From Escherichia coli 042 (GTDB lineage: Bacteria; Pseudomonadota; Gammaproteobacteria; Enterobacterales; Enterobacteriaceae), in NCBI RefSeq assembly GCF_000027125.1, contig NC_017626.1: DNA of 64,000 nt. One strand, written 5' to 3'. Below, in pieces: positions 35,401-38,400 of the stretch (position 1 is the first letter of the stretch; each line of letters opens with the position of its first letter). Made by a program: the position numbers.

Positions 35401-38400
35401 TATCACCGTAGTTTAATGTGTGATTTTTATTTATCGTCGAACCTGGATTGTTTATCATTGGCCTTAACAAAGCTAACGGCTAATAAGATTATTTCCATCA
35501 CTTCGTGAGAGCTTCATGCCTTGAGAGGATCTCAATTTTCTTTTGCAATGAGACAGGCGCTTCCTGTTGTTATGGTATAGTACCCCGCTATTGAGCCTCC
35601 TGAACAGTGATGCTGAATAACATAACCCCATGAAATATCGATAAAATAATCTCTACATTTGAAAATGCACGGTAATTCTGAAATGCAAAAAATCAACCAA
35701 ACCAGCGCAATGCCTGAAAAAACTGACGTTCACTGGAGTGGTCGGTTTAGCGTTGCACCAATGCTCGACTGGACGGACAGACATTGCCGCTATTTCTTGC
35801 GTCTGCTTTCCCGCAATACGTTGCTGTATACCGAAATGGTGACTACAGGGGCGATTATTCACGGTAAAGGTGATTACCTGGCGTACAGTGAAGAAGAACA
35901 TCCGGTAGCATTGCAACTGGGCGGTAGCGATCCGGCGGCGCTGGCGCAGTGTGCAAAGCTGGCAGAAGCGCGCGGATATGATGAGATCAACCTGAATGTC
36001 GGCTGCCCGTCTGACCGGGTGCAGAACGGCATGTTTGGGGCGTGTCTGATGGGTAATGCGCAGCTGGTTGCCGACTGCGTGAAAGCGATGCGCGATGTGG
36101 TGTCGATTCCGGTGACGGTGAAAACGCGTATTGGCATCGATGATCAGGACAGCTATGAATTTCTCTGCGATTTCATCAACACCGTTTCCGGCAAAGGCGA
36201 GTGTGAGATGTTCATCATCCATGCACGTAAAGCCTGGCTTTCTGGGTTAAGCCCGAAAGAAAACCGTGAAATCCCGCCGCTCGATTATCCGCGTGTGTAT
36301 CAACTGAAGCGTGACTTTCCGCATCTGACAATGTCGATTAACGGTGGTATCAAGTCGCTGGAAGAGGCTAAAGCGCATTTGCAACATATGGATGGCGTGA
36401 TGGTCGGGCGCGAAGCGTATCAGAATCCGGGTATTCTGGCGGCGGTAGACCGAGAGATCTTTGGTTCCTCGGATACCGATGCCGATCCGGTGGCGGTAGT
36501 GCGCGCCATGTATCCGTACATTGAGCGTGAACTCAGCCAGGGGACGTATCTTGGCCATATTACCCGGCATATGTTGGGCTTGTTCCAGGGTATTCCTGGC
36601 GCGCGGCAGTGGCGGCGTTATTTAAGTGAAAATGCCCATAAAGCGGGTGCAGACATTAATGTGCTGGAACACGCGCTCAAACTGGTGGCGGATAAGCGTT
36701 AACTTTTCACCAAAAAGTAGTCAAATTCACCACGCCCTGCGCACCGTCGCGGGGCGTTTTGCTGTTAAATCAATAGATTATTTTTGGCATGATTCTTGTA
36801 ATGCCTGCAAGAGATTTCATATTTGGGAGAGCATCATGCTGGAACTACTTTTTGTGATTGGCTTTTTTGTCATGCTGATGGTCACCGGCGTTTCGTTGCT
36901 GGGCATTATCGCTGCGCTGGTTGTGGCGACGGCCATTATGTTCCTCGGCGGTATGCTGGCATTGATGATTAAGTTGCTGCCGTGGTTACTACTGGCGGTT
37001 GCGGTGGTGTGGGTTATTAAGGCGATTAAAGCACCAAAAGTGCCGAAATATCAGCGCTATGACCGCTGGCGTTACTAATGGATTGTGCGGATGATCACAA
37101 CCTAAGGTTTTATCCTTAGAACAAAATAGGAATTGATAATCAAATCTGTCACTATTGCGCCTCTAACAGATTCATCGTGCTGTACCCTACATACAGCCGA
37201 ACTATAAAAAGAAAGGGCTTCCCAGGTGGAAGCCCTATTTCTTTTATGGAATCAACAGGCTGGAACCTTGCGTCGCCCGGCTTTCCAGAATCTCATGCGC
37301 ACGCTGTGCATCCTTAAGCGGATATTTCTGCTGCTCGGTGACATCGACCTTAATCACACCGCTGGCAATCAAAGAGAACAGCTCATTACTGGCCTCGGTT
37401 AATTCCTCCCGCGTGGTGATATAGCCTTGCAGGGAAGGGCGTGTCACATACAACGAGCCTTTCTGATTGAGAATGCCTAAGTTCACACCGGTAACCGCAC
37501 CTGATGAGTTGCCAAAGCTCACCATTAAGCCGCGGCGTTGCAGGCAATCAAGCGACCGTTCCCAGGTGTCTCTGCCCACGGAATCGTACACCACGCGCAC
37601 TTTCTTGCCACCGGTGATCTCTTTCAATCGCTCGACCAGATTCTCTTCGCGATAGTTAATAACCTGCCATGCGCCCGCTTTTAGCGCACTCTGCGCTTTT
37701 TGCGCGGTTCCCACGGTGCCGATAAGTTTCGCCCCAAGGGCTTTTGCCCACTGGCAAGCAATTAAGCCAACGCCGCCAGCCGCTGCGTGGAACAGGAACT
37801 GCTCATCGGGTTTAATTTCATAGGTTTTGCGCAGCAGATAATAAACCGTTAAGCCTTTCAGGAAGGATGCCGCCGCTTGCTCAAAAGAAATTGCCGCAGG
37901 CAGAATCGCCGCTTTATCCGCATTAATGTTATGCACAGAGCTGTAAGCGCCTAACGCCGACTGCGCATAGACTACACGATCGCCTGCCTTAATATGCTTT
38001 ACACCACTGCCGACTTTACTCACGATGCCTGCCGCTTCGGTGCCTAATCCGCAGGGTAGTGATGGCGGCGGGTAAAGGCCGCTGCGGATATACGTGTCGA
38101 TAAAATTGATGCCGATGGCTTTATTTTCGACCTGGATTTCATTCTCCGCCGGATCGGCAGGAGTGAACTCTACGGCTTGAAGTACTTCCGGGCCACCGTG
38201 CTTGTGAAATTCAATTCGTGTTGCCATGTGTCCTCCAGAACGTATCGTCAGGGTCTGCTTCATATGGTAAAGTTTCGACCCATTCTTTATCTCGGTAACT
38301 CCATTCACTATGGCAGGAAATAAACCCTTCAACAAACAGCAGGCTGAACCCCGCGAACGCGATCCACAAGTTGCCGGGCTGAAAGTGCCTCCGCACTCGA

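What the first reader, a model, noticed from the sequence alone, without database searches (positions are those of the whole stretch)
36786..36800. Imperfect sigma-54 -24/-12 element upstream of pspG
TGGCATGATTCTTGT has the GG at -24 but GT instead of GC at -12. pspG is known to be PspF/sigma-54 dependent, so this is the likely promoter, but the -12 mismatch deserves confirmation because it may be strain-specific and could change basal expression.
Basis: partly seen in the sequence, partly recalled or inferred. Interest (0 to 1): 0.2.

Follow-up and report, generated by a model that had tools for sequence, protein, structure and literature searches.

The report
Standard pspG sigma-54 promoter, conserved GT
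This is the ordinary, already characterised sigma-54/PspF-dependent promoter of the E. coli membrane-stress gene pspG, and its odd 'GT' at -12 is not a strain mutation but the normal form, identical in K-12 and kept in 75 of 80 related species.

Summary
The motif is real, one base left of the stated coordinates: TGGCATGATTCTTGT lies at 36785-36799. The 17-mer TTGGCATGATTCTTGTA (36784-36800) lies upstream of pspG (36836-37078); the predicted start is 36811, 25 nt before the ATG.

[quoted passage not shown] The T at -12 is not strain-specific:
- The 36-bp core is 100% identical in 5129 of 5427 E. coli records, and the variants I inspected fall outside the -24/-12 element.
- The E. coli pspA promoter, and Salmonella pspA and pspG, also have TTGT.
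- Across 80 species the -12 doublet upstream of pspG is GT in 75 and GC in 1.

The expected partner sites are present and conserved:
- a PspF-enhancer-like double repeat at 36706-36732, with the same pattern and spacing as upstream of pspA;
- the dusA terminator hairpin at 36732-36757;
- an IHF core, AATCAATAGATTA, at 36768-36780.

The only promoter difference from K-12 is T for A at 36806 (-5), a position that varies between species.

Verdict: a known promoter, correctly identified. The worry about a strain-specific defect is refuted. The GT signature is already published for pspA, but its function is untested. Low interest.

The parts
36706..36732 (+). PspF enhancer (UAS)-like double repeat TTCACCA-N13-TTCACCA; it contains the imperfect inverted repeat GTAGTCAAATTCACCAC (36717-36733). 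It lies about -105 to -79 from the predicted start and begins 4 bp after the dusA stop codon.
   Evidence: The pattern TTCRCYA-N13-TTCRCYA occurs once in the window (0 expected) and once in the K-12 pspF-pspA intergenic region with the same spacing (L002 1921-1947). It is present with at most 2 mismatches in 73 of 80 species, 78-80 bp upstream of the 17-mer. PspF binding to a pspG UAS is stated in PMC3709507. The pattern was derived after seeing both sequences, and the footprint papers could not be read.
36732..36761 (+). dusA intrinsic terminator: a 10-bp stem (36732-36741 with 36748-36757) and a 6-nt loop, followed by TTTT. It sits between the enhancer and the IHF site.
   Evidence: Terminator scan. 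RNA fold -19.1 kcal/mol, z = -2.35. Across 72 species 96.9% of cells are paired and 8 of 10 pairs show compensatory changes, against 36-59% paired in the slid controls.
36768..36780 (+). IHF core site AATCAATAGATTA (a perfect WATCAANNNNTTR), about -43 to -31.
   Evidence: 9 matches in the window against 2.8 expected, so it is not unique on its own. C36771, A36772, T36779 and A36780 are invariant in 72 species. There is at most 1 mismatch in 70 of 80 species, at a fixed offset of 16-17 bp, or 26-27 bp in the five non-Enterobacteriaceae genera. The common E. coli variant T36774C lies in the NNNN spacer.
36784..36800 (+). Sigma-54 -24/-12 element TTGGCATGATTCTTGTA: GG at 36786-36787 (-25/-24) and GT at 36798-36799 (-13/-12).
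   Evidence: Identical to K-12 and to ChIP-seq site OS40 for pspG (PMC4591121). Positions 2, 3, 5, 6, 8, 11 and 13-15 are invariant and position 16 is T in 75 of 80 species, while spacer positions 7, 9 and 12 vary freely and position 10 is T in 72 of 80.
36806..36806 (+). The only difference from K-12 in the 156 bp compared (36690-36845): T here, A in K-12, at about -5.
   Evidence: The window allele (56-mer identical) is in 818 of 5408 E. coli records, including O157:H7. The position is poorly conserved between species.
36811..36811 (+). Predicted transcription start (plus or minus 1 nt), 25 nt before the ATG.
   Evidence: Rule used in PMC4591121 (motif centre + 19), which gives the same 25-nt distance as their table entry for pspG. 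Not mapped here.
36836..37078 (+). pspG coding sequence (80 aa), with Shine-Dalgarno GGGAGAG at 36825-36831.
   Evidence: Annotated pspG in 5425 of 5426 complete E. coli genomes and in K-12 (b4050).

Best explanation
Window 36706-36811 is the canonical enhancer-dependent promoter of pspG. Sigma-54 RNA polymerase binds TTGGCATGATTCTTGTA as a closed complex. PspF binds the double repeat about 80-105 bp upstream. IHF bends the DNA at the AATCAATAGATTA core so that PspF can contact the polymerase, and ATP hydrolysis by PspF opens the promoter. Transcription then starts near 36811. PspA holds PspF inactive until membrane stress. The dusA terminator hairpin between the enhancer and the IHF site insulates pspG from dusA read-through. 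The T at -12 is the normal, evolutionarily maintained base of PspF-dependent promoters (pspA and pspG), not a lesion in this strain. Shown here: sequence identity to the characterised K-12 promoter, the conserved architecture, and terminator covariation. Taken from the literature: sigma-54 occupancy, PspF binding and activation, and the IHF role (shown for pspA). Inferred: the exact start site, the exact extent of the PspF site, and any functional consequence of T at -12.
For: Identity to K-12 over the whole regulatory region except position -5. The same 17-mer is a sigma-54 ChIP-seq peak (fold above threshold 15) upstream of pspG and is flagged as experimentally confirmed in EcoCyc; pspG and pspA are up-regulated when sigma-54 is overexpressed (PMC4591121). 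[quoted passage not shown] PspF binds the UAS of pspA and of pspG; pspG has one UAS and is about 20-fold induced (PMC3709507). Salmonella pspG has TGGCATGATTTTTGTAAG and is bound by sigma-54 (PMC3844500). The 36-bp core is 100% identical in 5129 of 5427 E. coli records. Across 80 species the -12 doublet is GT 75, GA 3, GG 1, GC 1, and the UAS and IHF blocks keep fixed offsets. The UAS pattern is shared with pspA. The terminator shows covariation. No sigma-70-like promoter was found on the + strand upstream of pspG.
Against: The motif alone is not statistically distinguishable from chance in 64 kb. The primary paper on the pspG promoter (Lloyd et al. 2004) and the pspA footprinting papers are not in the held library, so the start site and the exact PspF and IHF footprints rest on secondary citations and on my sequence comparison. 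The UAS pattern was defined after the fact from pspA and pspG. No experiment was done on this strain, and the -5 T/A difference is untested.
Confidence: 0.94

Rival explanations
1. The T at -12 is a strain-specific degenerate base that weakens or deregulates the pspG promoter in this isolate.
For: [quoted passage not shown] Changing T to C would raise the PSSM score by 4.7 bits.
Against: K-12 has the same base. The core is 100% identical in 5129 of 5427 E. coli records, and the three variant-core strains aligned differ only outside the element. 75 of 80 species have GT. pspA and the Salmonella psp promoters also have GT.
Confidence: 0.01
2. The promoter is the known one, but the conserved T at -12 has no function of its own. 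It is tolerated and inherited from the common ancestor of the enterobacterial psp promoters, and the promoter works despite it.
For: Other ChIP-bound E. coli sites also deviate at -12 (glnH TC, hydN GA, ygeW GT). Three species have GA and one GG at pspG, so the position tolerates several bases. No experiment on T versus C at a psp promoter was found in the library.
Against: Over the same 72-80 species the neighbouring positions -9 to -1 fall to 30-50% identity, while T at -12 stays at 94%. A single T-to-C transition to consensus is seen in only 1 of 80 species. The same non-consensus base is kept independently at the second PspF promoter, pspA, in 'almost all species' (PMC3041696). Both points argue for selection against C rather than drift.
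Confidence: 0.25
3. pspG is mainly transcribed by read-through from dusA or from an unnoticed sigma-70 promoter, and the -24/-12 match is incidental.
For: The motif alone is expected about once by chance in the window. The intergenic region is only 133 bp.
Against: A strong terminator, conserved with covariation, lies between dusA and the motif. No sigma-70-like site was found on the + strand. Sigma-54 ChIP-seq, sigma-54 overexpression and in vitro data point to this element. The sigma-54-contacting bases are invariant across 80 species while spacer bases vary.
Confidence: 0.02

Closest known systems
E. coli K-12 pspG promoter (pspGp; Lloyd et al. 2004, as cited in PMC3709507, PMC4591121 and PMC4641871)
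   Same: The -24/-12 17-mer, IHF core, UAS-like repeat, dusA terminator, Shine-Dalgarno sequence and start codon are identical; 155 of 156 bases are identical.
   Different: One base: T instead of A at 36806 (about -5). This allele is shared with 818 of 5408 E. coli records.
E. coli pspA (pspABCDE) promoter
   Same: The element is of the same kind, TTGGCACGCAAATTGTA, with GT at -12. It has the same TTCRCYA-N13-TTCRCYA upstream repeat and an IHF-like core next to the -24 element. It uses the same activator, PspF.
   Different: In pspA the repeat starts 91 bp upstream of the 17-mer, against 78 bp in pspG. pspA is described as having two UAS and 100-fold induction, and pspG as having one UAS and 20-fold induction (PMC3709507). 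The pspA enhancer also represses the divergent pspF gene, whereas in pspG the enhancer abuts the end of dusA and its terminator.
Consensus sigma-54 promoters such as glnAp2 or hypA (TGGCAC-N5-TTGCW)
   Same: The GG and the -12 doublet have the canonical spacing; TGGCA and TTG are present; an enhancer-binding activator acts from upstream.
   Different: T replaces the consensus C at -12, which costs 4.7 bits in the PSSM. Of the 42 intergenic sense ChIP-seq sites in K-12, only pspA, pspG and ygeW have GT.

Membership tests
Sigma-54 (RpoN) -24/-12 promoter | GG doublet and -12 doublet ten bases apart within TGGCA-N6-TTG | tested here: met
   TTGGCATGATTCTTGTA at 36784-36800. It is the top PSSM score in the window.
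Sigma-54 (RpoN) -24/-12 promoter | Consensus C at -12 (typical of about 96% of promoters; not obligatory) | tested here: not met
   T at 36799. Experimentally bound and confirmed promoters (pspA and pspG in K-12 and Salmonella) carry the same T, so this is a known permitted deviation, not an exclusion.
Sigma-54 (RpoN) -24/-12 promoter | Occupied by sigma-54 in vivo, and transcription depends on rpoN | not testable with these tools
   Literature on the identical K-12 sequence: a ChIP-seq peak (fold above threshold 15) and up-regulation on sigma-54 overexpression (PMC4591121).
Sigma-54 (RpoN) -24/-12 promoter | Needs an AAA+ enhancer-binding activator to open | not testable with these tools
   In vitro open complexes on a pspG probe were formed with sigma-54, PspF(1-275) and dATP (PMC4641871).
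Sigma-54 (RpoN) -24/-12 promoter | Sigma-54-contacting positions conserved between species while spacer positions vary | tested here: met
   Positions 2, 3, 5, 6, 8, 11 and 13-15 are invariant in 80 species; positions 7, 9 and 12 are variable.
PspF-regulon promoter (pspA type) | PspF upstream activating sequence within about 130 bp | tested here: met
   TTCACCA-N13-TTCACCA at 36706-36732. The same pattern and spacing occur upstream of pspA, with none expected by chance, and it is conserved in 73 of 80 species. PspF binding itself is known only from the literature.
PspF-regulon promoter (pspA type) | IHF site between enhancer and promoter | tested here: met
   A perfect WATCAANNNNTTR at 36768-36780, with core bases invariant in 72 species. 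IHF binding was not tested.
PspF-regulon promoter (pspA type) | GT instead of GC at -12 | tested here: met
   PMC3041696.
PspF-regulon promoter (pspA type) | The downstream gene is a psp effector | tested here: met
   The 80-aa ORF at 36836-37078 is annotated pspG in K-12 and in 5425 of 5426 genomes.
Sigma-70 promoter | -35/-10 hexamers upstream of pspG on the + strand | tested here: not met
   No + strand site in 36500-37400. TGTAAT at 36797-36802 lacks the essential A at position 2.

The most novel reading that the evidence does not exclude
The non-consensus T at -12 is an actively selected signature of PspF-dependent promoters. It would tune the sigma-54 closed complex, or the fork-junction lock, for an activator that has no regulatory domain of its own and is controlled in trans by PspA. 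Restoring the consensus C would then measurably change basal leak, induction ratio or IHF dependence. The pattern is documented for pspA and here for pspG in 75 of 80 species, but I found no functional test in the papers searched.
Probability: 0.5. Interest if true: 0.3.

Novelty: already known. Interest (0 to 1): 0.1.

Why it matters
For this window it matters little. The finding correctly flags a textbook promoter, and the suspected defect is the normal state, so no strain-specific regulatory change should be inferred from the -12 base. There is a modest general point. Both PspF-controlled promoters avoid the consensus C at -12 across the Enterobacterales, although one transition would create it. 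That makes a clean, cheap mutagenesis test of what the -12 base does in a natural sigma-54 promoter.

Tried and rejected
- Motif statistics alone do not carry the case. The degenerate pattern and the PSSM score are both within chance for 64 kb, so I did not rest the argument on them.
- Lloyd et al. 2004 (PMID 15485810) and Weiner et al. 1995 (PMC306980) are not held. The mapped start site and the footprints could therefore not be read.
- A literature search for UAS I and UAS II coordinates returned only PMC3709507, which gives no sequences. A search for closed-complex or IHF studies of the pspA promoter found nothing specific on T versus C at -12.
- IHF ChIP papers (PMC3333857, PMC9104697) do not mention pspG.
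- An Rfam E-value search of 36500-37500 gave only two sub-threshold ctRNA_p42d hits (21 and 20 bits against a gathering score of 50) on the pspG/qor terminator hairpin, which I treat as noise.
- The first PSSM pass picked a spurious site in Yersinia (L081) because the real promoter lies 190 nt upstream of the ATG. This was corrected by widening the search.
- A sigma-70 reading of TTGTAAT was considered and rejected.

Full report
**What is there.** The window around the finding is the E. coli dusA-pspG-qor-dnaB region. dusA ends with TAA at 36700-36702. pspG is the 80-codon ORF at 36836-37078, preceded by GGGAGAG (36825-31). GG is at 36786-87 and GT at 36798-99.

The motif by itself is not beyond chance. 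The degenerate pattern is expected 0.94 times in the window. A PSSM built from 40 published E. coli sigma-54 sites ranks it first in the window (16.3 bits; runner-up 14.3), but 6 of 20 shuffled windows reach that score. The case therefore rests on context and comparison.

**Comparison with K-12 and the E. coli population.** A 156-bp alignment with MG1655 is identical except for T versus A at 36806, about -5.

Bonocora et al. list exactly this 17-mer, TTGGCATGATTCTTGTA, as sigma-54 ChIP-seq site OS40 upstream of pspG. It has a fold-above-threshold score of 15, lies 25 nt from the predicted start to the gene, and is flagged as experimentally confirmed in EcoCyc (PMC4591121). Their rule (motif centre + 19) puts the start at window 36811.

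The 36-bp core 36770-36805 (IHF core plus the -24/-12 element) is 100% identical in 5129 of 5427 E. coli records. Another 294 differ by about one base and 4 by two to three. The variants I pulled out include the most divergent strain. They differ at 36774 (inside the NNNN of the IHF core), in the terminator loop and at -9, never in the GG or the TTGT.

**The T at -12 is a class feature, not a strain feature.** The K-12 pspA promoter reads TTGGCACGCAAATTGTA. Salmonella pspA is TGGCACGCAAATTGTATT and Salmonella pspG is TGGCATGATTTTTGTAAG, and both are sigma-54-bound (PMC3844500). [quoted passage not shown] I extended this to pspG. One scan of species-representative genomes returned 80 loci from Escherichia, Citrobacter, Salmonella, Enterobacter, Klebsiella, Raoultella, Kluyvera, Leclercia, Lelliottia, Trabulsiella, Yersinia, Rahnella, Brenneria and others.

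- The best sigma-54 site upstream of pspG has GT at -12 in 75 species, GA in 3, GG in 1 and consensus GC in only 1, S. enterica subsp. diarizonae (the Yersinia site was corrected).
- Positions 2, 3, 5, 6, 8, 11 and 13-15 of the 17-mer are invariant, while spacer positions 7, 9 and 12 vary.
- Positions -9 to -1 drop to 30-50% identity.

This pattern indicates selection on sigma-54 contacts. Because one transition would create the consensus, it also suggests selection against C at -12. That last step is inference.

**The rest of the promoter.** The anchored multi-species view shows four conserved blocks.

1. **Enhancer-like repeat.** TTCACCA-N13-TTCACCA lies at 36706-36732 and includes the imperfect inverted repeat GTAGTCAAATTCACCAC. 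The same degenerate pattern with the same spacing occurs once in the pspF-pspA intergenic region (TTCGCCA-N13-TTCGCTA) and nowhere else in either sequence, with 0 expected. It is kept with at most 2 mismatches in 73 of 80 species, 78-80 bp upstream of the 17-mer. I take it to be the PspF enhancer that the literature reports for pspG (PMC3709507). The exact footprint is not known to me, and the pattern was defined after the fact.
2. **dusA terminator.** The hairpin at 36732-36757 plus TTTT has 8 of 10 pairs with compensatory changes and 96.9% pairing over 72 species, against 36-59% in the slid controls. It sits between the enhancer and the promoter and should insulate pspG from dusA read-through.
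3. **IHF core.** AATCAATAGATTA at 36768-36780 is a perfect match, and its C, A and TA are invariant. Its offset is fixed at 16-17 bp, or one helical turn more in Yersinia, Rahnella, Brenneria and Biostraticola. An IHF-induced bend is reported to be needed for looping at pspA (PMC2709558).
4. **The -24/-12 element itself.**

No sigma-70-like promoter is found on the + strand.

**Mechanism.** Sigma-54 holoenzyme sits on the element as a closed complex. PspF bound at about -80 to -105 is brought to it by an IHF bend at about -37. ATP hydrolysis by PspF then opens the DNA, and transcription starts near 36811. PspA inhibits PspF until the inner membrane is stressed (PMC3709507).

Established here or by published experiment on the identical K-12 sequence: sequence identity, sigma-54 occupancy, activator-dependent opening in vitro, and the conserved architecture. 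Inferred: the precise start, the borders of the PspF site, IHF occupancy at pspG, and any role of T at -12.

On the last point, the literature available to me says only that the consensus C at -12 helps keep basal transcription in check, and that promoters showing activator-bypass transcription tend to lack it (PMC4551910). I found no T-to-C test at a psp promoter.

**Verdict.** The identification as the pspG sigma-54 promoter is correct. The suggestion that the -12 T may be strain-specific is refuted. The only strain-level difference is the -5 T/A polymorphism, at a position that is not conserved between species. The feature is already known, so interest is low. The residual question is why both PspF promoters avoid the consensus C; it is small but directly testable.

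Noticed in passing
window 34310-35302 (+): A single uninterrupted, AT-rich 330-aa ORF corresponds to K-12 yjbL (84 aa, 90% identity to residues 1-84) joined to yjbM (235 aa, 85% identity to residues 94-330). The two K-12 genes therefore look like a split version of one gene that is intact in this strain.
   Followed up: partly
window 37135-37245 (+): The 3' UTR of pspG carries the PspH small RNA annotated in K-12 (b4758), a sponge of the Spf sRNA (PMC5145812). Over the PspH span the sequence is identical to K-12. It ends at a bidirectional terminator at 37214-37236 shared with the convergent qor gene.
   Followed up: partly
window 36732-36761: The dusA terminator hairpin is wedged between the PspF enhancer and the IHF site of the next gene, and its 5' arm starts at the last bases of the enhancer repeat. 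This arrangement is conserved, with compensatory base changes, across 72 species.
   Followed up: yes
window 36806: Single-base difference from K-12 in the pspG promoter (T versus A at about -5, inside the region that melts). The T allele is shared by 818 of 5408 E. coli records, including O157:H7 strains. Any effect is unknown.
   Followed up: partly
L033 1416-1444 (Salmonella enterica subsp. diarizonae): This is the only one of the 80 species with the consensus GC at -12 of pspG (TTGGCATGGTTTTTGCTTTAAT). The bases just downstream also differ from subsp. arizonae, which suggests a small local rearrangement.
   Followed up: no
L021 and L033 (Salmonella arizonae and diarizonae), just downstream of the -12 element; L081 1330-1460 (Yersinia vastinensis): The pspG leader is lengthened by inserted repeats: a REP-like palindrome in these Salmonella subspecies (leader 68-69 nt after the 17-mer) and, in Yersinia, a roughly 130-nt insert that looks ERIC-like to me (190 nt). 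The repeat families were judged by eye and not tested.
   Followed up: no
L081-L084 and L086 (Yersinia, Biostraticola, Rahnella, Brenneria): In these more distant genera the IHF core lies 26-27 bp rather than 16-17 bp upstream of the sigma-54 17-mer, exactly one helical turn further. The enhancer there is a cleaner inverted repeat, for example GTTAGTC-N5-GACTAAC in Brenneria roseae.
   Followed up: partly
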